From Rhizodiscina lignyota (lineage: Eukaryota), in the NCBI GenBank assembly GCA_010015805.1, contig ML978131.1, forward strand, positions 806,001-870,000: a stretch of DNA of 64,000 bases, written 5' to 3'. Positions 22,112 to 37,003 of this stretch are shown piece after piece; positions within the stretch are counted from its first letter, which is position 1, and each line of letters starts with the position of its first letter. The notes below the pieces were generated by a model. The model made no database searches, had not been told where the DNA came from, and was given only the letters and a program-made list of their open reading frames with translations. The translations under genes and the position numbers were made by a program.

Positions 22112-23926
22112 ATGTCTCCTTCTGTGGCTAAAGGAAACCGACCCGTGCGAATTGCACAAATCGCCGCCTCTACCGTCGACCGTCACGAAATCTTTGGCAT
22201 GCTGGCAAAGACCACTGAAGCAGATGTTTTTTGTGGTGACTTCATTTCCGAGTGGAATATGGCTACTCGTGGCGCAGGAAAGGCCTTGGGACTTGAAGAA
22301 TTCTCCTACGAGCCAGCCTTTGTCGATGCCATCGCACCGGCGCTGGAAGATTTGGAGCGCAATCGAATCAAGGTTGCAGTCAATGCAGGTGTAACTGATA
22401 CTGCCAAACTTGCCAAACTTATCGATGGCATGGTTAAAGAGAGAGGCCTCAATTTGAAAGTTGCGTATGTCGATGGAGATACCGTCACGGACACCGTCAA
22501 GCAACTTATCAAGGGAGGAAAATCCTTCAAGCATCTTATAGATTCCGTCGATCATTTAGGTAAAGACGGCGACGAGATGATTTTTGCCCAATGTTACCTC
22601 GGCATTTGGGGTATCGCACGTGCTTTCCGCGAAGGAGCGGACATTGTCCTCTGCGGCCGCGTGACAGACGCGTCTCCAGCAGTGGGCGCTGCTGCATGGT
22701 GGCACGACTGGAAGGAGGATCAATACGATGAGCTTGCTGCTGCCCTGATAGCGGGTCACTTGATAGAATGCACAGGATACGTGACAGGGGCGAATTTCAC
22801 CGGCTTCAAGCGCTTCCCCGTCAATGTCAAGACAGGATTTCCCATCGCTGAGATTTCAGCCACTGGCGACGTTGTCATCACAAAGGCTAGTTTCTTTACG
22901 GGAGAGGTGTCGCCGGAGACCTGCACCTCGCAGCTCATGTACGAAATCCAAGGGCCGTGGTACTACAACTCCGACGTCACTGCTGAGATAACAGATGCTA
23001 AGCTTGAGAAGATTGGGAAGGACCGTGTACGGCTCAGTGGTATTCGTGGGATGCCGCCTCCGCCGACCACTCGGGTAGGCTTTACGACAATGGGAGGGTA
23101 CCAAGCCGAGATGCATTGGTTCTTGGTGGGCTTAGACGTGAAGGAGAAGGCGGAGATGCTCACAGCTCAGATCAAGGAGCGCCTGAATCCGGACAGTTTC
23201 CAATGCCTCGTATTCCAAACACATGGATCGGTCCCTAAAGATGCCAGGACGCAAGCATCTGCTACGTTGGATTTTAGAGTCTTCGCCCAGGCTCGGACCG
23301 AAGAGTTAATCAGCCACAAGAACTTCTTCCGGCCATGCATTGATGTGCTCAATATCACATACCCAGCCGCAACCTTCCACCTGGATAACAGGCAGAGCTT
23401 CCCAAAGATCTACTACGAGTACTATGTGTCCCTCATAGAGCAGTCAGTAGTAAGGCAACAAGTGCACATCGGGTCCAAAGTCATCGATATTCCGCCTCCA
23501 AGCGTTACGAAACAGTATCCCTCGGAACAGCCATTCACCGACGTGACCAATCCAGTTGATCTCAGCTCGTTCGGCCCAACTACGTTGGCTCCACTGGGAT
23601 ACGTCGTACACGGTCGTTCGGGAGATAAATCGTCAAACGTAAACATCGGGCTCTTCGTCCGGCACGCGGATGAATGGGACTGGCTTCGCAGTCTCCTTTC
23701 CATTGCCAAGATCAAGGAGTTGTTGCGTGACGAATATACCGGCAATAAAGTCGATCGCTGGGAGTTCCCTAATGTGTGGGCAGTACACTTTATTCTACAC
23801 GACCATCTCGATCGTGGCGTGAATTCCAACTCGACATATGACTTTTTGGGCAAGAATGTAGCGGAGTTCGTTCGTTATCAGAAGGTTGAAATCCCGAACA
23901 AGTTCTTGGAGAGGGGAAGAATCTAA
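22112..23926 (+). CDS. AtuA-like / DUF1446 protein (acyclic terpene utilisation A family), intronless, 604 aa
   Basis: Motifs GDFISEWN, VAVNAG, VAYVDGD, GADIVLCGRVTDAS, AGHLIEC, GFPIAEI, QLMYEIQGPWYYNSDV, and C-terminal GRSGDKSSNVNIG and DFLGKNVAE. Confidence 0.9.
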   Translation: MSPSVAKGNRPVRIAQIAASTVDRHEIFGMLAKTTEADVFCGDFISEWNMATRGAGKALGLEEFSYEPAFVDAIAPALEDLERNRIKVAVNAGVTDTAKLAKLIDGMVKERGLNLKVAYVDGDTVTDTVKQLIKGGKSFKHLIDSVDHLGKDGDEMIFAQCYLGIWGIARAFREGADIVLCGRVTDASPAVGAAAWWHDWKEDQYDELAAALIAGHLIECTGYVTGANFTGFKRFPVNVKTGFPIAEISATGDVVITKASFFTGEVSPETCTSQLMYEIQGPWYYNSDVTAEITDAKLEKIGKDRVRLSGIRGMPPPPTTRVGFTTMGGYQAEMHWFLVGLDVKEKAEMLTAQIKERLNPDSFQCLVFQTHGSVPKDARTQASATLDFRVFAQARTEELISHKNFFRPCIDVLNITYPAATFHLDNRQSFPKIYYEYYVSLIEQSVVRQQVHIGSKVIDIPPPSVTKQYPSEQPFTDVTNPVDLSSFGPTTLAPLGYVVHGRSGDKSSNVNIGLFVRHADEWDWLRSLLSIAKIKELLRDEYTGNKVDRWEFPNVWAVHFILHDHLDRGVNSNSTYDFLGKNVAEFVRYQKVEIPNKFLERGRI

Positions 23927-24361
23927 ATTGGGTTACGTTGAAATGTACGTAAATTGTAAAAATAATTGACGGAATTGTGGAGCGGGAGCATAAGGCCTTA
24001 CGGAAGATTGTGATCGAGAACGTGTAATCCATAATGCCGTTCACTGAGTTCTTGCTTCGACCACCTTTTACGGGCCTGCGACTACGATAACTCGAAGCGG
24101 TGTGGGCCCTACCTTACCATAATGGATAGCCGAACAGCCCTTACCATATTAAGGATAAAAATACGTCCAACTGAACCTGTTTGAGTTAGCCTGAAAAATG
24201 TTAATGGAAGCCAAAACCCGACGACCGTCGTTATTAGCCGCTCCTGGGTTCGGGGCACCCCCGTCCTTCGAGCCGGATCTTGGAAACCAGAGGGGCAGTT
24301 TTGAGCGTCCTGGGATCATCTTCATAGTTTTTTTATATCTGCACTCTCTGTGCATCAGGCC

Positions 24362-27316
24362 ATGTCGGTTTCTCCTAGACCAGCCTCGAAACGCAAGCAT
24401 GTCACTACTGCTTGCGTTTCATGTCGCACGAGCAAAGTGAAGGTACGGGGTCATGATCGAAGCCCAGACTCGCCGTCTTTCACTCATCCAGTGGCAAAGT
24501 AACAAGCTGACATTACTTCCAGTGCGATGGCTTAACCCCTTCATGCTCCAACTGCCTCAGCAAGAACAAAGAATGTCGCTACCAAGTTGGAGATGACAGA
24601 CGCAAGTGAGTTGCTTTCGGCATTGAACTGATGTAGCCGGCCGCAGTCGGCTTTGCCGTCCCACTCGCAATATATGAGTGCGCTGACAAGTCCCAGAGTA
24701 TCGCTGCGCATTGCTGTAGAGTTGCTCTCGCGCCGTGTGAGTCAGCTCGCTCAATTTATCGAGGCAAATGGGCTGCAGATCCCTTCCATGCAGGAGGACG
24801 AGGAGGCAGCGCTGGAAAGGATTCTAATCGCGGCCAAAGTCAATCCCAAGGAGTTGACTGCAGGTCAACACGTCTTTCCAAGCTCGACCGATCCTGAAAA
24901 CAATGCCACAGGGCCTCACATTTTGATGGGGCAGAATTCCGTCGTGGACAGCGCTCAAGGCGGGGTGGTGGCTGATTTTGATTTCGCCGAGGGCCAGCGT
25001 GACCTGGAACCGAATGTTGAAAGTAGTGCCCAAGCGGTGCTAGGCTCAACGCAGAATGCCGCCAGAGTCGTGAGCTCGTCTGGATGGAGCTGGAACTCAA
25101 TCGAAGCGCAGGAGCCGATGTTGGAGTCAAATTACACGTCTCACCCTGCGCCTGCAGTCCAGGACCAGTCGCCGAACGCTTCCGCCTCTCATGGCTCCTT
25201 CAGTGATGCTTTAATCGAGAAGCGTACACCAGAAGGAGGGGATACCAGCGACAGGGAAAGTGTGGAAGAACTTGTCGACCAGCTCTCTGACAGAATGGGT
25301 TCCATGCAGATTGGCGCTGACGGACAAATCCGCTACTATGGACCTACATCGAACTTCAGTTTGATGGACATGCCTTCTACAGACCCTATGCATGTTCATC
25401 GCTCAATCCGCAATGATGGTCAAGAATACTTGGACCGCCTTGAAGTAGGAGCAGAGGTACCCGCTGACCTAGAGAACCATCTGGTCAATCTTTATTTTGC
25501 ATGGCAGGATGCGTCCTTTCACGTCGTGGATCGGGACATGTACGAAAAGGGGAAGCGCAAGTGGCACGTGGACATGCAGGATACTCCATACTATTCTGAG
25601 GCCCTTAGAAATGCCATGTAAGTTGCTGTCAGACTTGCAGGAAAGTCGTCTTAACTGAATCATTAGATGCTCGCTCGGGGCTGCCTTTGAGGCGAAACAT
25701 CACCCAAGTTTCGTCACGTTTCCCAAATCGTTGGCCGATTTCTTCGCCGACAGGGCGAAAGCGCTCCTCGAGATCGAGCTGGATGCCCCATGCGTAGCAA
25801 CAACACAAGCCATGGTGGTTACTAGCTGCCACGACATGGGTTGCACTCGAGATGCTCGGGGCTGGTTGTACAGTGGTATGTTCCAAAGCTATTGCTTCTA
25901 GTACAATATGCTCAAGGATGATAGGAATGGCAATCCGACTTGCATTTGACTTGGCCCTTCACAAGGATATGACTGAATACATAGAGAAGGGTATCATTAC
26001 CCAAGCCGAAGCTGATGTCCGCCGAACGGTTTTCTGGGGGGCATATGTTGTCGATCAGTACGCATCTCCCCAAATGTTCTTCACGGCTTGTCTGACCGAA
26101 ATCAAGAGTCTGGGGATTCCACCTGGGGCGACAATTCCGAATCCCCATGGAAGATATCACTTGTGCGAAACCGGGCGGTAGCTTGAATAGCACCATCAGC
26201 AATCAATGGGTGTCTTATACATCGCCTACGTCTACCCAGACATGCACGCCAGTGTTCGGTTATGTACAGGAAGTAAGCCGACAGCGTGCCCTGCTCTGCC
26301 AGATCATGGCTCCATTAGGATATAATCTGTATGCAACAAGACTTGAACAAGCTGAGCAACCGCTGACACTTTTGCTTTGCAGATATGGCAAATCCGGAAT
26401 TCCACCTGCCATACTGCAGGACTTAAACGCGAAGACAGTTCAGGAACTGTTTAAATGGAAGGACGAGCTTCCAGCAGAGCTACAGATAGCTCTGCAGGTA
26501 GATGTCCAAGAACATACTACGCCGTACCTACCGCATGTCCTATTATTGCAGTAAGTACGACGCTCAAAACCTGAAATCCCACTCACCCGTCGCAGCATGC
26601 ACTTCTATCAAAGCCTAATTCATGCCCATCGCCCGTGGATGTCAAAACATTTCATCCAGCCGCAACCGCCTCAGGGCCCAGGCTCGGAACATGCTCGGCA
26701 GATGTGTGTTGACGCAGCGATCGCGATAGCGAAACTTCTCCAAGTGTACGAGAACAGATACACTTTTCGATTCATGAACATTCAAGGGCCTGCGATTACT
26801 TGCTCGGCAGCATTGTTACTCATCTTTGCTGACATCTCTCACATTGGGCGACCACAAGGTCTCAGTGTAGCACCGTACCTGAGTGTCTGCTTCCGGGCAC
26901 TCGACGAGTTCGGACAGTCTTGGGAAAGTGCAAAACGGGCAAAAGACTTTCTGACGAGGTTGCAACGCCAATGGGAGCTGAAAGCTCGCGCGAAGCGTTA
27001 CGAGCGTCGAAAAACGGACCTTTATAAGACTACTTCCAACAGCACGAGGAAACGACCTTTCAACGAGGCCGACTTTGGTCCAGGTCAAAACGAATTCCAA
27101 GCAACTCAGCCACTGGAAGAGCAGCAATCGGTAGAAGGAATGCAACAGCAGCAAGGGCACCTCCAAAACAGCAATCGTGCTGTCGGGTTTGACCTTGATA
27201 TGGACTTCGACTGGATGTTGGAGGCGGATGTACAAGCTGTGTCGGGAAATTGGGCCCCTGTTCCTTCTTCCAGGACAAATCCTCCCGATTTGATGGGATT
27301 GCTGGGCGAACTCTGA
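24362..27316 (+). CDS. Zn(II)2Cys6 binuclear-cluster transcription factor with a fungal-specific middle homology domain
   Basis: Spliced N-terminus MSVSPRPASKRKHVTTACVSCRTSKVK|CDGLTPSCSNCLSKNKECRY carries all six Cys. Later exons contain YYGPTSNF, LVNLYFAWQ, GMAIRLAFDLALH, RRTVFWGAYVVD and IHAHRPW. Multi-exon; internal boundaries approximate. Confidence 0.93.
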
Positions 27317-27536
27317 GCACCTATCCAACCTTGCGAATATTAATATGGAGATCCGCCCATGGAATCAGTGATCGCAATTTTCGTCCCCCAAGGTCAGCGA
27401 CAACTACTCCCTTCCGGCCGTTGGTGCTGGGAAACAAAATGCAGATGACATCTGGCGCCTCTCTGATGACGTATATTTCAGACTTCAAATTTCTCTAATA
27501 TTTTCGTTGACAAAGAGGCAGCGCCGCACGACATCT

Positions 27537-28681
27537 CTACATCAGCCTTCCCGCGTGAATCCCACCTGTGATCAAGAGGTCATCTGATGTATGATATGCG
27601 CTCGCATCAGAGAGCAGATATACAACAGGAACTTTTAGATCGGTGCGGTCTCCCATCCGTCGCATGGGCGGTTCGTTGTTCATTATATCTCCAAGCCACG
27701 GCATACGATTGCAGAGGTCAAGCGTCATATCCGTCATCATGTAGCTGAGGATGCGTGTGAGCGGACGTTGGCTTGTTAAAATGTTGGGTTCCAACGTTGC
27801 ACTTACCCAGGAGAGACGCTATTCACGCGGATGCCAGTACCTGCTAGCTCTACGCCGAGTGCCTTGGCCAACGAAACAACAGCACCTTTGCTAGAGCAAT
27901 AGTCGCTCGTCGTCTGGCCCTTGCTCGCCACATACGCAGCAATGGAACCGATGAATACCATAGATCCGCCCCGCTTGTTGAACGATGTCGGTTCCTGCTT
28001 CAACATTTGCGCTCCTGCCAGTTGCGCCGAGTAATACGTTCCAAGCGTGTTGACGGCGAAGCAGCGGGCTACTGATTTAGGGTCACGCTTGAAGAAGGGC
28101 TCGTCGGGGCAGATGCCGGCGGCCGTCACCCTGGAACTCCATTCAGTTGTTGCGTTATATCATATGGAAGGGACGATTTTGAGAGATTTACAAGCCATCA
28201 ATGCGCCCGAAATCTAATACAATGCTGTCGAAGGTCGCTTTGAGCACATCATAATCTGTCACATCGCTCCTACCGTTCTCGCGCATCTCGTCAGTACCTC
28301 TGTGCAGTTTGACGATGTTTCTGTAGACCCAACTGACTTGTAAAGTTTACACTTGATGTCGAAATCTTTTTGAAGCTTTTCAAAGTGCTCGTGTGGTTTG
28401 TCTAGCGCGTCAACAATAGCAACGTTCCCGCCCACCTCTGCGATAGCAAAAGCAAAGGCTAGGCCCAGGCCTCGTGCGCCGCCTGTGATAACTATAGTGC
28501 GGCCTTGGAGGGAAATCAGGTCATGTACTGAGCGGCGCAAATATGCGTTAATGTCGTTTGATGGCTGAGAGTCGCTGGTTGTGTGGGCGTCATTTGTCGG
28601 TATGCTGTTGCCGTTGGTGGCTGCTGGAGTACCATCAATTGGTAGAGCAGGGAGATTTGTCACTGGAGTTGCGGTCGACAT
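27537..28681 (-). CDS. Short-chain dehydrogenase/reductase of the sorbose-reductase / arabinitol-mannitol dehydrogenase type
   Basis: Motifs ITGGARGLG, DFGRIDGLVTAAGI, IGSIA, catalytic YCSSK, RVNSVSPGY and LLITGG. Four exons joined by GT-AG introns. Confidence 0.9.
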
Positions 28682-28945
28682 GGCTTATGTGCTCGTGACA
28701 ATGATGATTTTAATGATAGTTTTTCGAGTATCCAGGTTGACACAGCGAGGGGGGATAGGATAGGATACGTGTATTAAGGGAATTGGAATGGACACAGCTG
28801 GGTGTGAATTGTAGAAATAGCAATAATAATGAAAAACATAGATGGCTTTTATGGAAAAGCGCCACGCAGGTACCTTAAGGTATGCACAATGAACAGGGGT
28901 ATTCGTGATCAGCCAGGGGTGCCTCAAAGAGGTTAGACGAGGTGG

Positions 28946-28962
28946 TCGGACCAGAATTCCGA
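28946..28962. promoter_or_regulatory. Putative Zn2Cys6 site TCGGA-ccagaat-TCCGA (CGG-N9-CCG) upstream of the SDR
   Basis: Inverted repeat about 265-281 bp upstream of the ATG; matching copies lie upstream of neighbouring genes. Confidence 0.6.
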
Positions 28963-29495
28963 GGCTTAAATGTGGAGATGCATCATGCCCATTACCCATC
29001 ATCATACCCATTCGGAATCCAGGATGCAAAGTCGTGATAGTCAGCCCTCTTGGAACCCTCGACCTCGGCTTCCGCCTTGATGCCAATAGTTACCCAGCTT
29101 CTTAACGTCCCAAGGATGAAGAGGCAAAATACCGTGGCGTAGCACCGTTGAACGCGCGCGCGGCTGGCATTCCCGCCATGGCGCGACTACGTTTGGATAA
29201 CCCTCCAACGCTCGCGCTCTCTGCCCCAACTCGATTCAAGACCCTACGGATCCCATTGACATTCTGGTCTCGTATGACACTTTGAGCGGAGGTTCACAAA
29301 GCCCGCGCCACTCGCACATAAAAATGCGTTGCGTCTTTGACAGACCATAAATGTAATGAGTTGATTGAGAAAGGAATCTCTCTGTAGAAAGTGGTGGTTT
29401 TATATACACATAGAAAGGGCGCTACTGCTAGCTAACCCCCTCTGACAGTCTTGGCATAGCCGACTTAAGCTACCTTTATAAGCAGTCCTCTATGC

Positions 29496-31450
29496 TCAGA
29501 CTTCATTCGTCGACGTCATATTTGGCCAGATGGTGGCCGCCATTTCGTTCTCTATACGAGCGCGATATGCTTGCTCCGCTTCGCCAGTACGGTCGTGGAA
29601 GACGTGATCCATTTGCTCCAATGTCCGGCCATTTGTCTCGGGAACCACAAACCAGACCCAGATCAAAGCGAGAAGGCAGAACACACAGAAGAATACATAA
29701 GTGCCGAATCCGGTGTTTTGGACGAGCGGGGGCGTAATCAGACCAATGATGAAGTTGTTAAACCAGTTCGACATGGTCGCGAATGCCATGCCCTTCGCGC
29801 GAAGGGAGGCCGGGAAAATCTCAGCGGGCATTGCCCACGGTATCGGGCCCCATGTCGCGCCATACGTGAGCATGAAGAAGAGCAGAAAAGCGACAGAGGT
29901 CCAGGCCGCAGCCTGGTGAGTCGGCCAGCTGTTCTGGAACTTACCCACGAGAACGGCAATGATGAAATGGGCTGTGACCATGCATGCCGCACCGCCGAGC
30001 AGCAGCGGTCGTCTGCCGAACCTGTCCATACCCCATAATGACCAGAAGCATGCTACCATCTGAACAATGTTAAGGACTCCGGACATGTTCAACTGCATCT
30101 CGTAGTCCAGGCCCATTTGTGCAAAAAGGGTTGGTGAGTAGTAGATTAAAGCATTCACGCCGCCAAATTCTACAGTTTCACAAATTAGTGACGGGATACT
30201 TGTAGGATGTAACCTTAAATGGTGGCGAAATCTCGACATACGTTGGAAAAACATGAGCCCAATGCCAACATGGGTTCTCTTCCAAGCACCCTTACGAAAA
30301 CAGTCCGTGTAGGCGACGACGTGGCGCATGATACGGGCCTTGTAGGTATCACTTTGTAATTTCGGGTGCAATTCCTTCTCCAGCGCGCTGCGGTATGCCA
30401 CTTCAGACCGAATTTCGAACCACTCACGCAGGACGCGCTCGTCGGTGGATGGGACGTTGCGAATCTTGCATAGAACTTCTAAAGCTTCGTCATCGCGGCC
30501 TTTAGATGCCAACCAGCGAGGAGAATAAGGGAGAAAAGGAACGCCTATCCCCAGTATCAAAGCTGGTACAATCTAATATCGTATTAGCTTCGGCTTGTTT
30601 CAAAGATGGAGCTGAGAGCTACCTGGATGAGAAAGGGGAGGCGCCATGACCATTCACTGGGAATAAATCGTGTGCCGTAAGTAATATAGAAAGCGATGAC
30701 AATTGCCGTAACAATAGAAAGCTCCTGGAGTACCAGCAGGGTACCGCGGATCTCGGGAGGAGCGATCTCGGAAATATACAGAGGAGCCACCATTGCCAGC
30801 ATGCCAACGCCTATTCCGCCTATGAAGCGAGCAGCGACGAGCATTCCATAATCTTGGGAGGCTGTTTGCAGCGACGAGCCCACAAGAAAAATGATGACAG
30901 CAACCATAATGGACCACTTGCGTGAAATCTTGTCGGCGAGCCAGCCTTGGTTCATTGCTCCCAGAAACGCGCCCAGCTCGATCATGGCTGTGAGTAAGCC
31001 TTTCTTGAAGCCCGAGCCGGCAGCACCAGCAGCAATTTCTGGAAACTGCTTCAGGAACTGTTCCATAACGAGCGTCACGGAAACGACTCCTTGGTCGTAG
31101 CCGAAGAGTGCACCGCCCATTGTCGAGAATGCCGCACAAATTGTGACATATCTATTAGTGAAGAGGCCTTTGAAGCCTGTCTCCGATATTAGCCAATTCG
31201 CCACATCAGCCAGCAGACAAAGCATAGCTAAGGAGAAATGGATTGCACACGCACCTGCCTTGCCATACGTCTCTCGTTCTTCCCATACAGGGCGTTCGGA
31301 ATGGACGGCTTTGGTCTCAGGCTCCTCGAACGCTTCCAGCTGCACGGCGCTAGGGGACTCGATTTTGAGTGCCATGTCGAAGGCGGAACTTGTACCTGGG
31401 GTGGCTGTCTCTACGTTACGTTCGTCGGTGTTGGACAATTCCAAGGGCAT
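29496..31450 (-). CDS. MFS sugar porter (Sugar_tr family)
   Basis: Motifs GGALFGYDQG, ADKISRK, PLYISEIAPPEIRG, WRLPF, PYSPRWL, FFQ(E)FGGVNALIYY, DRFGRRPLLL, WGPIPWAMPAEIFP and VPETNGRTLE. Three introns. Confidence 0.95.
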
Positions 31451-31654
31451 AAAAAACAGAATCGTGCGGATCGCGTTTGGAGCGGCGCAGAAAGTAAGCC
31501 AATCGATAAATTGTGTCCACCAGCTGTACCGCGGTTCTCGTGGAGGCTTATATCTACTGCAGCACACGTGGATTGTGCCAAATCTGGGGTAGTCCCCATA
31601 ATCTGCGGGGTACTCCTAAGCTGAGATGCTGAAGGACGGGGAATGGTTGGCCGA

Positions 31655-31671
31655 TCGGAATTACAGTCCGA
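31655..31671. promoter_or_regulatory. Putative Zn2Cys6 site TCGGA-attacag-TCCGA (CGG-N9-CCG) upstream of the sugar porter
   Basis: Reverse complement TCGGACtgtAATTCCGA matches the SDR-promoter copy TCGGACcagAATTCCGA at 14 of 17 positions; about 205-221 bp upstream of the ATG. Confidence 0.6.
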
Positions 31672-31965
31672 GGGATTAATGATGGCCATGGGCCTCCTTA
31701 GTATCATGGGTATCCTGGACATTTCCGGAAATGAACAGCGTCCGTACAGTCCTCTTCTCCTCTTCCAAGTCCCCGCGTATTCCGCTGGGATAATGAGGTC
31801 GGATTCACTGACAGATATGGGGATTGCCTGGTTCCGCCGATAAGGTCAGAAAACGTAAACAATATTGGCACGAGAACTTTAGCCATGACAGGCTACCACG
31901 CAGGTATTAGAAAACATTGAGCATGACATTCAGCTCCTTGGCTCTCGAATTACAGACATGGTGCA

Positions 31966-33223
31966 TCACGCCACGTCCGGAAAGCCAAAGTCGACACCAA
32001 ATGCCGGATATACATAACGATGTATTTCGTTCCGTTGCTGTACACTATGGACAAAGGCATCAAGATCCTCGAGATCGTCCTTTTCGAGCTTTACCAAATT
32101 CATATTGTCACGAATACGTGAGGGTGACACGGATTTTCCAAGGACCGAACGGCCATGTGCGACTACAAGTCAAACTATCGTCAGCCAAGCTGTCAGATCA
32201 AGCTCGTGGCGAACATGAGAAATGATGGGAGTCGGCATAATTGAGACGTACCATGCCAGCTTAAGAGTATTGTGCTCGCCCCTGTCCCTCTTCTCTTCGC
32301 AATCGTCTTGACAACGTCAAGCTCGATAAGCGGACTTCCGCTGCTCCCCAGTGGACTGTATGCCGTTACATGGATGCCTTTGGCTGTGCAAAAGTCCACT
32401 ATGTCTTGCTGAAGGAGAAGCAGATGGTTCTCAATCTGGTTCACAGCTGGTACGACGCTTACCTTCGGCAGTAGTTCGTTCAGATATTTGACACTGTAAT
32501 TGGCGACGCCGATGGCTTTGACTTTTCCGGTCGTAAGTAGCTTTTCCATGTCCTTGTACGTGTCGACGTGGCTTCGCTCCAAGGTCAAATCCCGAGACCC
32601 ATCAGGAAGTTTGGGAAACTTTTCGTCATTGCCTGGAGAAGAAGTCTAATTAGCTGCAGAGCATCTATGAGTATTTGCAAGTTGCGGCGACAGACACTGC
32701 GCATATGGTTCCACGCCCAACAGCGTTGCAGAATAGTCATGCTATCACTCTGTCCTGAGGACCTGAGCAGGGCAGGAAAGAGCCAAGACATAGTAGGATG
32801 AGCATTGGCTTACCATTCGGATTCATTGCGACTGGCCAATGCATAAGATAAAGGTCAATGTAGTCTAGGCCAAGCGCCTCCAGGCTCATATCAAGATTCA
32901 TCTCTACCCGTGTGTGATAGGTGCACCAAAGCTTTGTCGTGACAAATAGCTCTTCTCGTTTCACCTTCCCGCTCGCAAGAGCGTCGTTGAGGCCTAGACC
33001 AACTTCTGCTTCGTTACCATAGCAGTATGCAGCATCTACATGCCTGTAACCGATATCTAGTGCGTAGGCGACCGCTGCTCGCACTTCACCGGGTTTAGAT
33101 TGCCAAGTACCTTGAAAGGCGTTAGTATTGAGCGGCATATGAGACATTCCGAGACGAACCGAAGCCAAGCGCTGGGATTTGAACTCCATTATTGAGCCTG
33201 AAGTGGCGCGGAACATCGGACAT
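31966..33223 (-). CDS. Aldo-keto reductase (GCY1 / GaaD / LarA-like glycerol-aldose reductase)
   Basis: Motifs FRLNNGVQIPALGFGTWQS, GYRHVDAAYCYGNE, LFVTTKLW, YIDLYLMHWP, FPKLPDGSRD, KAIGVANYS, VNQIENH, AYSPLG and KSVSPSRI; ends PAFGVDFGFPDVA* (TGA 31966-31968). Four exons. Confidence 0.93.
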
Positions 33224-33399
33224 AGTGGCAATGAAAGGATAAGAGACGCAAGTGGACGGATGGTTCCTTCCTGTGATAAAGGTGTGATGAGCGTTGTCTC
33301 CCGGGTGTATACGAGAGTATGAAATATCCAGCAGTCCAAGAGGCCTGTATCTAAGTCCATCTCTCGGATTTAAATCCCAGGTCAGCCGACGCTGATGAA

Positions 33400-33426
33400 T
33401 CGGAATTTGCACTTCGAACGGAAATT
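33400..33426. promoter_or_regulatory. Degenerate CGGAA half-site pair (TCGGAATTTGCACTTCGA...CGGAAATT) upstream of the AKR
   Basis: Contains the TCGGAATT half of the cluster motif about 180 bp upstream of the ATG; spacing and second half are imperfect. Confidence 0.35.
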
Positions 33427-33755
33427 CAAAGCATCTGATGGACTGCGAGCCTGCAAGCAGCTTCTGATTGGCTCCGTGAGTGAAACGTTCCATAATACCT
33501 GGCCATCCAATTACATGTTACTGAGGGAGTTTCGAGCCATCTGCACCTCCAGGAAGAGTGTCAAGATGAGGAGAGTGAGAATTATGGCACGGATGAAAAT
33601 GTCTCGTAAGCTAAAGAGGAACTAGAAGAATAAGATGTGATATATCGAGACTTATTGTCGACTCAACGAGAAGATACCATATGCCATCGCGTCGAGAACG
33701 AGCTGTGCAGAGAAATGCTAAAACCATCATTAAACAAGATATTTCAATATTGAGG

Positions 33756-35523
33756 CTAGATAATGCTTTTCATCTTCTCCACCAGCGAAGGCATTAGACG
33801 GAACCAAGAACGTGGCGCAAGAGAAGCGGCAGCCGCCATCAACAGCAATAGCTTCATTACGGTTGACATGGTCCTCAGCCATCTCTTGAAGGCGAAAAGA
33901 GGCCACAGAGAGCTGCCACCACTCATGTTGAAAGCCGCCCAATCGGGGAAGAAGGTTGCCATCCAGAAGGATCGGGCAAGCCCAGGCCAAGAAGCTGCAT
34001 TGCGACCAAAGTCGCCCATGTACCAGTTTGAGCAATCGCCTGCGAACACGGTGTTCTGCAACCCGCTATGGATCGCGTTGGTTGTACGGTCCTCCGCCGA
34101 TTGTTTCACCTCAATAACGGACGCCCGATGATCAAGCAGCGGTTTGAAGAGTGACTTGATGGCATAATCAACTTGTGTTTCGCACGCAAACAGAGCCGAA
34201 TTATTCGCCGGGAATGTGTTGGGGCCAAAAAGAATGGCGAGATTGGGATAGTTGTGCACGTAGGTCCCGAGATAAGCCTGTGCTCCACGACACTCCTTCC
34301 ACTGATCGTGTAGGGCCATGCCGTTAGCACCGACAATGTGCATCGGTGTTAGGAATTGTGAGACTTGGAAGCCAGTCGCAAGGACAATGATGTCGAAGTC
34401 GTCGCGGATACCGGAAGTGCTCACGATTCCCGTCTCGGTAATCTCCTTGATCCCTTCTGGTAAGAGCTCAACATTCTTTCTGTTCAAAGACTCAAGGTAG
34501 CCAGGGTCAAAAATTCGCCGCTTGCAGCCCAGAGGAAATTTGGGAATTAGCACCTCCCAGTACTTCTTTGGGGTCATTGAACAGATGTATTTGGTCGACT
34601 GCGCTTCCATTTTCTTCCGAGCTTTCACTCCGCTTGGCGTGGGGAAATAGGTGGCTGTTTCATCGTCGGCTTCTAAGAAGATGCGAAGACGAAGTGACCG
34701 CTGCCAAAGAGGAACCCACTTGAAAAGGAACTTATCCAAGGCGTTGTAATAGTGATTAGGGCGCTCGTGGTACCATTGGCCACTGCGAGCATACTGCTTT
34801 ACGAAGGCGACATCTGGCGCAATTGCCGGGACAACTTGAGCAGCGCTGCAGCCATTGCCAATGACCGCCACGCGCTTGCCCTTGTAGCTCACCGAATGGT
34901 TCCAACGTGCTGTGTGGAACATGTCTCCTTTGAAATTTTCCATCCCCGGGAACTTAACGTCTCGCGGGAACGAGATGGCTCCGACGGCAGACACAAACAC
35001 AGAAGCAAACCTCGAATACTCGATTTCAGTTTGAATATCTTTCAGCCTGACTTCCCATTTCGACTTGTCGGCGTGCCACGCAGCACCCACGCATTCGACG
35101 GAGCAGTGAACATGCTTTCGGATGTCAAACTTGTCAACGGTGTCGTCCATATCTGTCCGATGTCACTGTGGCGCACTCATACTGTCTTGGGGTACTGCTT
35201 ACACTGTAGGATTTCGGGTTGCTCGCATAGTTCTCTAGACCAGTTCGGGTTTAGGTTGAAGCTGAAGGAATAGAGTACGGACTTGAGATCACAGCCACTG
35301 GAGTGATATTCTCAGCAGATGCTCGTGCTTTTGGCAATGTCGGGATCCATTCTCACCAGCCCGGATAAGTGTTCGTCCTCCATGTACCCCCGACTCCGTC
35401 GAGCTTCTCGTAAATGGTAAAGTCTTCGAAGCCTAGGCCATGCTTAAGACGATAAGCCATTGCGATTCCGGCTGGGCCTGCGCCAATGATGATGGCATTG
35501 AGCTCCTTCGCGTAAGGCGACAT
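33756..35523 (-). CDS. FAD/NADPH-dependent Baeyer-Villiger-type monooxygenase (class B flavoprotein)
   Basis: Motifs IIGAGPAG, GGTWRTNTYPGCGCD, fingerprint FKGDMFHTARW, second Rossmann VIGNGCSA, GCKR and LATGF; hydrophobic C-terminal tail. Three exons in frame. Confidence 0.92.
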
Positions 35524-35766
35524 GTTTCCTGCTGTGTGCATCGTGCGTTGAGTCTACAATAATCGAGTTCACCCACGAAGAGGATCGAGGCACTGGACTT
35601 TGACGAGCGAACATATGTCTTATTCGAAATAGCAAAGACAGAATCTGAGGCGGACTGCTCTTCCCTCGGTCGCGGCTCTGGAAAGCTCTTCCAGTGGCAT
35701 AGCTCCCGAGCGACACAGGCCGAGATCGCCACGATGGAATGACATGTTTCTGACACTTGGTGGGGA

Positions 35767-35783
35767 TCGCAAGTGAATTCCGA
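35767..35783. promoter_or_regulatory. Putative Zn2Cys6 site TCGCA-agtgaat-TCCGA (1 mismatch) between the monooxygenase and the dehydrogenase pseudogene
   Basis: Same 17-bp geometry; shares GAATTCCGAGG with the SDR copy; about 244-260 bp upstream of the monooxygenase ATG. Confidence 0.5.
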
Positions 35784-36039
35784 GGAAATGGAATTGGTGG
35801 TTGGCTGGGCTTTACTCCGTATGTGTGCACACGTTCGTGCTATCACGTCGTCTCGGAAATCTGCCCCGACACGTGACATGTTAGACAAACTCGGTTAGAT
35901 ACCGTACTTTCCGGCTATACTGAAACAGCGCTAAAGGAAGACGCTAACCATCTCAGGTAGGAAAGTGGATATCTTCCATATGGTTACTTACAGAAGAGTA
36001 GGGCTATGGATGTCTGTGCGCATCTATCGTATTGGTCAC

Positions 36040-36722
36040 ATCAAAAGCCGTGCACACTTCGCGTAGTTCCAGTACAGCCGGAAAGTATGGTACATAGGGC
36101 ATCAGTGCCCTAGTCGCTCAAGCCGACGACTGCAGAGACATTATCATCGCAGATATAGACAAGGGCCGGCTCCAATTTGCTTTTGGAAACGGATTCGCAC
36201 AGGCCGTGCATGAGGTTGAGTCACGGAGGGGAGCTACGGTAGAGGAGAAAAAGGAGATAGCGCGAGAGACTGCTCGAAAGATCGGCGCAGTGAAGTAGCC
36301 GGACGGTGAGAGTGTCGGGGAGATCCAAAGAACGTCGAGACCAGCCTGCAATCGTCTATATATGTAAGTCATACTTTTGCGTTTGTCTATATCAGATTTT
36401 GACATTCGACCAGGCAACGCGATCGGGAGGGAGCGTTATCCTTGTTGATATGGGAACACCTGATCATACACTGTCAACGTGGCGATATACAAATGCTTAT
36501 CCCAGGACAATTGAGATTGCAACAGCGGCAGCCACAGGTTCCTCGCTTAGTTCCACGATTCTTCCAAACGTTCGGAAATTGATCACACATCGTCACAAGG
36601 GGCTCGCCTCCGTTGAAGAGGCGTTTAACAATACCTCAAAGACAAGATATGCAAATTAGAACCTTGTCATGAAGGTCGTAGTTGAAATGGATGGCGTAGG
36701 ACGGCCGCAGTATCATCTGTGA
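36040..36722 (+). pseudogene. Decayed zinc-dependent polyol (sorbitol / xylitol / L-arabinitol-type) dehydrogenase, C-terminal half only
   Basis: Remnant peptides CRDIIIADIDKGRLQFA, (E)TSLQSSIY|ATRSGGSVILVDMGTP, WRYTNAYPRTIEI and LPNVRKLITHRHKGL...LVMKVVVE. In-frame TAG at 36296-36298 and 36657-36659, a frameshift near 36335, internal deletions, and a retained GTAAGT...CAG intron at about 36364-36413. Confidence 0.8.
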
Positions 36723-37003
36723 TGCGAACGGTCACGTTACAGTCTCGACCATATGGGCATGTATTATCACGAGATCGTTGACACTAACCATCATCATTGC
36801 GGATCTGGATGCTCTAGTCAAACCTAAGAGGGGTATATTCCGAGACATTGAAGTCCACGTCTAAAACGCTCCGTCCAGACTCAGTAGTTCCACATGACCT
36901 TCAGCAACTAGGGAAAATATATTAAAGTCGTCAGGACAAGATATCTCGAAAATCAATCGCCAACGCCTTCCGCTATGCATGCCGAACGCATCTACTATAT
37001 CGT

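What the first reader, a model, noticed from the sequence alone, without database searches (positions are those of the whole stretch)
28946..35783. Shared palindromic CGG-N9-CCG element (TCGGA-N7-TCCGA) at similar distance upstream of cluster genes
Seen: TCGGAccagaatTCCGA (28946, SDR), TCGGAattacagTCCGA (31655, porter; its reverse complement also matches the AAT part of the spacer), TCGCAagtgaatTCCGA (35767, BVMO) and a degenerate TCGGAATTtgcacTTCGA (33400, AKR). All lie about 180-280 bp upstream of the ATG. Established: Zn2Cys6 dimers bind inverted CGG triplets with factor-specific spacing (Gal4 N11, Put3 N10, Ppr1 N6). Inference: this is the binding site of the resident factor at 24362-27316, independent evidence that the cluster is one regulon.
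Basis: partly seen in the sequence, partly recalled or inferred. Interest (0 to 1): 0.7.

Follow-up and report, generated by a model that had tools for sequence, protein, structure and literature searches.

The report
Fungal regulator site, one base shorter
The promoters of a widespread but undescribed fungal breakdown gene cluster share a real binding site for a zinc-cluster regulator, and in this fungus that site is one base shorter than in the relatives sampled, a possible natural case of a regulator changing its spacing rule.

Summary
All four promoters share TCGGAATT 177-280 bp upstream of the ATG (6 of 5000 random draws share any 8-mer). The palindrome TCGGA-N7-TCCGA is not enriched genome-wide (37 vs 34 control). 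The AKR site has one extra base.

Footprinting supplies independent support. In related BVMO promoters from other fungi, CGG-N10-CCG occurs in 13 of 16 (1.1 expected); N9 occurs in 3 of 16. The family motif is asymmetric: CGGAATYYnnaTCCCG.

This genome uses the same motif one base shorter: N9 in 5 of 11 promoters examined and N10 in 0 of 11. N9 sites also occur in a paralogous TF-BVMO cluster on contig C7 and before three unlinked genes of cluster type. The TF linker length is unchanged.

TF, BVMO, porter and SDR are syntenic across many ascomycetes. The regulon reading is therefore supported, but binding by the resident factor, rather than its C7 paralog, is inferred only. No promoter from the closest orthologous subclade could be obtained, so the shift cannot be dated.

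The parts
28946..28962 (-). Site upstream of SDR, CGG-N9-CCG, strong half-site TCGGAATT on the minus strand
   Evidence: homolog-trained matrix score 15.7 at N9 vs 9.6 at N10
31655..31671 (+). Site upstream of sugar porter, CGG-N9-CCG; differs from the L032/L034 site by one missing C
   Evidence: score 14.1 at N9 vs 7.6 at N10
33364..33380 (+).
   Evidence: score 13.2 at N9; a similar N9-CCA site lies in L021
33400..33417 (+). Distal AKR promoter site, CGG-N10-TCG (family spacing, imperfect right half)
   Evidence: score 10.7 at N10
35767..35783 (-). Proximal BVMO promoter site, CGG-N9-GCG
   Evidence: score 12.5
35853..35869 (+).
   Evidence: top N9 score in the 64-kb window, 18.0
24362..27316 (+). 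Zn2Cys6 transcription factor (PF00172 + PF04082), candidate binder
   Evidence: queried exon piece 99% identical to P0001; C6-linker-coiled-coil layout
27537..28681 (-). Short-chain dehydrogenase, polyol/gluconate-5-dehydrogenase-like
   Evidence: its ortholog in P0048 matches such enzymes below curated cut-offs; gene end read
29496..31375 (-). Sugar porter (PF00083); alternative ATG at 31450
31966..33223 (-). Aldo-keto reductase (PF00248)
   Evidence: gene end read
33756..35523 (-). Baeyer-Villiger-type flavin monooxygenase (PF00743)
22112..23926 (+). AtuA-family gene: neighbour without a site, probably outside the regulon
   Evidence: best scores -5.1 (N9) and 2.1 (N10) in 500 bp

Best explanation
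These are upstream activating sites for a dimeric Zn2Cys6 factor of the family encoded in the cluster. Each monomer contacts one CGG. A strong half-site with its inner flank (CGGAAT) is paired with a tolerant second half (CCG, GCG or CCA). One or two sites per promoter co-induce porter, SDR, AKR and BVMO, most likely when a sugar-acid or polyol-type substrate activates the factor. Across the family the spacing is N10. In this genome the regulon has moved to N9, including the paralogous C7 cluster and three unlinked genes. Shown: the sites, their conservation, the N10/N9 contrast and the synteny. Inferred: binding, dimer geometry, activation, which paralog binds, and the substrate.
For: Unanchored CGG-N10-CCG in 13 of 16 non-redundant homologous BVMO promoters, expected 1.09, maximum 5 in 1000 shuffles; no other spacer from 4 to 14 exceeds 4 of 16. 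It is rare in more distant BVMO promoters: 1 of 8 and 3 of 21. All four loci that hold both a family TF and the BVMO promoter (L032/L034, L036, L056, L083) carry the site, L036 with CCA. A matrix trained only on other fungi ranks five cluster-promoter sites among the top nine N9 hits in 64 kb. All four promoters score 13.2-18.0 at N9, while 2.3% of 344 background segments reach 12.4. Own genome: N9 in 5 of 11 promoters, N10 in 0 of 11; Fisher p=3e-5 for N10 vs homologs. The C7 TF groups with the L034 TF (support 88), and their homologous SDR promoters read CGG-N9-GCG and CGG-N10-GCG. Three unlinked N9 sites scoring 19.7-20.9 precede a BVMO, a porter and a homolog of the C7 epimerase-like gene; none of 6 matched N10 hits precedes such a gene. 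Synteny from locus tags.
Against: No binding or expression data. N9 alone does not separate the sets (5 of 11 vs 3 of 16, p=0.21). N9 sites also occur in other fungi: L021 scores 17.5 and the L083 porter promoter has an exact one. The AKR promoter keeps an N10-like site. Two N10-like hits (13.7, 14.1) lie in promoters of the C10 cluster, whose TF belongs to another family. Three of 16 homolog promoters lack exact N10. L023 and L052 have the site but no family TF within the 21 kb fetched. No promoter was obtained from the seven-member BVMO subclade that holds the window gene. No linker length change explains N9. Eleven of the 15 genome-wide N9 pattern hits are not before cluster-type genes.
Confidence: 0.7

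Rival explanations
1. The family binds N9 and N10 about equally, driven mainly by the strong CGGAAT half-site. The N9 bias in this genome is then drift or a mild preference, with no change in the protein's spacing rule.
For: N9 sites in L021 and L083, and an N10-like site at 33400. Variable-spacer factors are known, including the zinc-cluster factor Pdr3 (PMC3334620, passages). Linker length is unchanged.
Against: 0 of 11 own promoters have exact N10 against 13 of 16 homologs. N9 recurs at five unlinked loci. All 22 training sites score higher at N10 than at N9, though they were chosen as N10.
Confidence: 0.3
2. The sites are real, but one factor serves all N9 loci in this genome: the C7 paralog, a heterodimer of the two paralogs, or an unrelated trans-acting Zn2Cys6 protein. 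A single change would then explain N9 everywhere.
For: Both paralogous clusters and three unlinked genes share N9, which one change explains more simply than two. The site occurs in L023 and L052 without a nearby family TF. The half-site resembles a generic zinc-cluster monomer motif (Sut1 AASTCCGA, PMC3334620).
Against: The resident TF's orthologs stay beside the BVMO in at least seven species by locus tag, as expected of a pathway-specific regulator. Only two family members were found in G000.
Confidence: 0.3
3. N9 is not peculiar to this species but is the state of the whole TF/BVMO subclade that includes the Scytalidium, Verruconis and Kalmusia clusters.
For: Window TF and BVMO each fall in a starred subclade with these species, and none of their promoters was sampled.
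Against: It does not explain N9 in the distantly related C7 cluster, whose nearest sampled relative (L034) is N10.
Confidence: 0.3
4. The matches are chance, found after the fact.
For: The palindrome is no more frequent than its control genome-wide (37 vs 34), and the motif was chosen after seeing the sites.
Against: The shared-8-mer null already covers all 8-mers (6 of 5000), and independent homologs carry the motif.
Confidence: 0.03

Closest known systems
Put3 site CGG-N10-CCG (S. cerevisiae; PMC5729217, passages seen)
   Same: Inverted CGG triplets with N10 spacing as in the homologs; Put3 also reads spacer bases, which would fit the conserved inner AAT.
   Different: The TF is not a Put3 ortholog by any test here (only a weak zinc-cluster match, E=0.011). 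The targets are unrelated and this genome uses N9.
Gal4 UAS CGG-N11-CCG (PMC10954478, passages)
   Same: Same site architecture; Gal4 is the best structural match to the DNA-binding domain (E=1.6e-5).
   Different: Spacer is 9 or 10, and the site is asymmetric with informative inner flanks.
Candida albicans Lys14/Lys142/Lys143/Lys144 paralogs (PMC4066398, passages)
   Same: Shows that half-site spacing of zinc-cluster regulators can evolve, and that strong-plus-weak half-site pairs exist.
   Different: There the paralogs diverge from each other. Here two distant paralogous clusters in one genome share a spacing that differs from their sampled relatives in other fungi.
Tea1/Cha4/NirA-like regulators (recalled; several homologs are auto-named nit-4/nirA)
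   Same: Similar short linker before the coiled coil and, from memory, N10 spacing for Tea1.
   Different: Not verified: the paper search found nothing and no orthology test was run.

Membership tests
Zn2Cys6 dimer site (inverted CGG repeat) | Two CGG triplets in inverted orientation at a fixed spacing | tested here: met
   Exact N9 at 28947, 31656, 35854; one-mismatch N9 at 33365 and 35768; one site at N10
Zn2Cys6 dimer site (inverted CGG repeat) | Located in promoters of co-clustered genes above chance | tested here: met
Zn2Cys6 dimer site (inverted CGG repeat) | Conserved in homologous promoters | tested here: met
   Half-sites and position conserved, at N10 rather than N9 (13 of 16); closest subclade not sampled
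Zn2Cys6 dimer site (inverted CGG repeat) | Bound by the factor and needed for activation | not testable with these tools
   Needs EMSA, DAP-seq or reporter assays
Gal4-class Zn2Cys6 factor (resident TF) | Six-cysteine cluster, linker, coiled coil and middle homology region | tested here: met
   PF00172 above cut-off on one exon, PF04082 just below cut-off on one exon, both precomputed on P0001; layout
Palindrome TCGGA-N7-TCCGA as the family motif | Same palindrome in homologous promoters | tested here: not met
   0 of 16 close, 0 of 8 mid, 0 of 21 far promoters
Put3 regulon | Put3 ortholog and proline-utilisation targets | tested here: not met
   Targets are SDR, porter, AKR and BVMO; only a weak zinc-cluster match to Put3
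Tea1/Cha4/NirA subfamily | Orthology to a characterised member | not tested
   Recalled resemblance and automatic names only

The most novel reading that the evidence does not exclude
A whole Zn2Cys6 regulon family switched its half-site spacing from N10 to N9 in one fungal lineage. The switch covers two ancient paralogous TF-BVMO clusters and scattered target genes, with no change in linker length. That implies cross-regulation or heterodimerisation of the paralogs, and a spacing determinant other than linker length.
Probability: 0.35. Interest if true: 0.7.

Novelty: new variant of a known kind. Interest (0 to 1): 0.5.

Why it matters
It supplies a candidate motif for an uncharacterised TF family and ties together a cluster conserved across several ascomycete classes, which makes the pathway's inducer findable with a simple reporter. 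The linker region is generally held to set half-site spacing (PMC6080790, passage). A natural N10/N9 pair of close homologs with equal linker length would let one test which residues set spacing and how a regulon's sites follow a change in the protein.

Tried and rejected
- Genome-wide enrichment of the palindrome: none.
- An N10 hit (score 17) near a transketolase and zinc dehydrogenase on C13 proved to be coding and was discarded.
- An exact palindrome on C10 lies between two convergent genes and was not counted.
- The fourth TCGGAATT-N4-TBCGA hit (C3, upstream of a carnitine acetyltransferase-like gene) was not pursued.
- Linker length or a shared residue as the cause of N9: none seen by inspection.
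- Sequencing runs: one holder, X1; no RNA holder listed.
- Extending the metagenome loci to find the TF of L030 was not possible.
- The careful BVMO tree did not finish; both trees are quick trees with SH-aLRT support only.
- Structure and complex prediction were not run, since they cannot include DNA.
- Paper searches for the cluster or motif found nothing relevant. The library lacks most subscription papers and no supplements were read, so DAP-seq or SELEX tables may already hold this motif.
- Earlier scan notes: none near this place, by words or by sequence; eight unrelated notes from this genome were listed.
Full report
Setting. The window is G000:C11:806001-870000 of a 33.4-Mb fungal genome. 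The queried TF exon piece is 99% identical to P0001, which its source labels Rhizodiscina lignyota. Pfam gives AtuA (22112-23926, +), a Zn2Cys6 TF (24362-27316, +) and, on the minus strand, an SDR, a sugar porter, an AKR and a flavin monooxygenase. The monooxygenase's best solved relatives are Baeyer-Villiger enzymes. ATGs are at 28681, 31375 (or 31450), 33223 and 35523.

Observation. Two are exact TCGGA-N7-TCCGA, the BVMO site has GCG for CCG, and the AKR site at 33400 is one base longer. Two more sites, 33364 and 35853, were missed. The palindrome occurs 37 times in the genome against 34 for the control. What the four promoters share exactly is TCGGAATT, their only common 8-mer within 300 bp; 6 of 5000 random four-segment sets share any 8-mer. 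Contigs of run X1 show no differences over 23500-37000, though X1 may be the same sample.

The cluster is conserved. TF and BVMO homologs have neighbouring locus tags in Scytalidium (g3128/g3132), Verruconis (08954/08958), Kalmusia (4386/4384), Tolypocladium (02968/02973), Fusarium nematophilum (886/889), Cosmosporella (84940/84890) and isolate 11243 (10130/10090). Porter homologs sit beside the TF or BVMO tags in Cosmosporella, Tolypocladium, Colletotrichum karsti, two Pestalotiopsis, Penicillium angulare and a second Scytalidium locus. One gene model fuses the SDR to the TF (P0048). AKR synteny was not tested directly.

Footprinting. A metagenome scan with a BVMO alignment returned 80 of 176 relatives. 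I gave 61 of the 80 to the promoter test, leaving out by hand 19 that had almost no upstream DNA or looked like duplicates. Six more were dropped for under 190 bp and 10 merged as near-duplicates, leaving 16 close (48-73% identity), 8 intermediate and 21 distant promoters. L086 (49%) was placed in the intermediate set by hand, where the tree later put it. With corrected ATGs, unanchored CGG-N10-CCG occurs in 13 of 16 close promoters (expected 1.09, maximum 5 in 1000 shuffles). N9 occurs in 3 of 16, and no other spacer from 4 to 14 in more than 4. N10 sites also precede SDR, zinc dehydrogenase, transketolase and aldehyde dehydrogenase genes in L030, L083, L039 and L023. The consensus of 22 hand-picked sites is asymmetric, about CGGAATYYnnaTCCCG. 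L068, not in the training set, scores 15.2 at N10.

This genome is one base shorter. The homolog-trained matrix ranks five cluster-promoter sites among the top nine N9 hits of the window; at N10 only 33400 appears high. The four promoters score 15.7, 14.1, 13.2 and 18.0 at N9, while 2.3% of 344 background segments reach 12.4. TF and AtuA promoters score 3.9 and -5.1. The porter site equals the L032/L034 site minus one C. G000 has one paralogous TF, on C7 (43%), beside a paralogous BVMO, an epimerase-like gene and an SDR. Their promoters score 14.9, 15.4 and 10.7 at N9; the C7 TF and FAD-monooxygenase promoters have no site. Over all 11 promoters N9 is exact in 5 and N10 in none (N10 vs homologs p=3e-5; N9 p=0.21). 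The C7 TF groups with the L034 TF (88, unstarred), and their SDR promoters read CGG-N9-GCG and CGG-N10-GCG.

Scattered targets. A family-like N9 pattern, designed after seeing these sites, has 15 genome hits (control 3; about 12 expected at uniform composition by my arithmetic, so the count is not enriched). One is the C7 BVMO site. Three of the other 14 lie about 50, 420 and 130 bp before a BVMO (C3), a porter (C5, with a second N9 site) and a 38% homolog of the C7 epimerase-like gene (C20), scoring 19.7-20.9. With my rough guess of 150-600 such genes this has p between 4e-6 and 2e-4. The matched N10 pattern has 6 hits, none before such a gene.

Results against. N9 sites exist elsewhere (L021, L083 porter promoter), the AKR promoter keeps an N10-like site, and two N10-like hits lie in promoters of the C10 cluster, whose TF is of another family. 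The window BVMO falls in a seven-member subclade for which no promoter was available. Linker length is identical in the N9 and N10 factors. There are no binding or expression data.

Mechanism. Zinc-cluster dimers read CGG pairs, with the linker involved in specificity (PMC10954478, PMC6080790; passages). Put3 binds CGG-N10-CCG and contacts the spacer (PMC5729217, passages). I infer a dimer on a strong CGGAAT half-site plus a tolerant second half, co-activating the four genes. I put a functional site at about 0.9, a binder from this TF family at about 0.75, and the resident copy specifically at about 0.6; these are judgements. Spacing divergence between paralogs is documented for the Candida Lys regulators (PMC4066398, passages). 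Ten paper searches showed no description of this cluster, motif or shift. PMC5215518 (passages) uses N10 only as a promoter scan, and PMC6414702 was seen as a listing only.

Substrate, weakly. Related clusters add a zinc dehydrogenase whose best NCBIfam match is L-idonate 5-dehydrogenase, a transketolase and a succinate-semialdehyde-dehydrogenase-like enzyme, all below curated cut-offs; the SDR's best match is gluconate 5-dehydrogenase. This recalls the proposed plant route from L-idonate via 5-keto-D-gluconate to tartrate (PMC11066805, passages). A BVMO cleaving a keto sugar or keto sugar acid is my guess, at about 0.25.

Verdict. A real, conserved Zn2Cys6-type site of an undescribed regulon, ordinary in kind, with an unexplained one-base spacer difference in this genome that is directly testable.

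Noticed in passing
L030, L083, L039, L026, L034 (whole loci): Related clusters add an L-idonate-dehydrogenase-like zinc enzyme, a transketolase, an aldehyde dehydrogenase and a 6-phosphofructo-2-kinase-like gene (last name from my reading of the sequence), suggesting an undescribed keto-sugar or sugar-acid pathway with a BVMO step.
   Followed up: partly
G000:C7:361000-375000 (L103, L104): Paralogous cluster: FAD monooxygenase, SDR, epimerase-like gene, family TF, BVMO, porter fragment and a second Zn2Cys6 gene; N9 sites in three promoters.
   Followed up: yes
G000:C10:834000-857000 (L114-L116): A third BVMO cluster with two SDRs, AKR, two porters, two zinc dehydrogenases, transketolase and a Zn2Cys6 factor of another family; two N10-like hits in its promoters are unexplained.
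   Followed up: partly
G000:C19:313800-317700 (L135): AKR (69% to the window AKR), SDR and zinc dehydrogenase side by side; resembles, from memory, the fungal D-glucuronate pathway genes. No promoter site.
   Followed up: no
G000:C13:293000-299700 (L133, L134): Divergent transketolase and zinc polyol dehydrogenase followed by a sugar porter, without a family TF in 20 kb.
   Followed up: partly
window 22112-23926; L046, L050: AtuA-family genes lie beside BVMO relatives in two other loci, although the window's AtuA promoter has no site.
   Followed up: partly
L016 (G000:C3:1834198): A CGG-N9-GCG site with the full TCGGAATT half about 450 bp upstream of a carnitine acetyltransferase-like gene (name from my reading of the sequence).
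   Followed up: no
P0057, P0129: Penicillium homologs of the TF have a linker one residue shorter than all others; their promoters would be a useful spacing comparison.
   Followed up: no
window 23970: A lone CGGAATT half-site about 390 bp upstream of the TF ATG, with a poor second half (score 3.9-6.1); possible weak autoregulation.
   Followed up: partly
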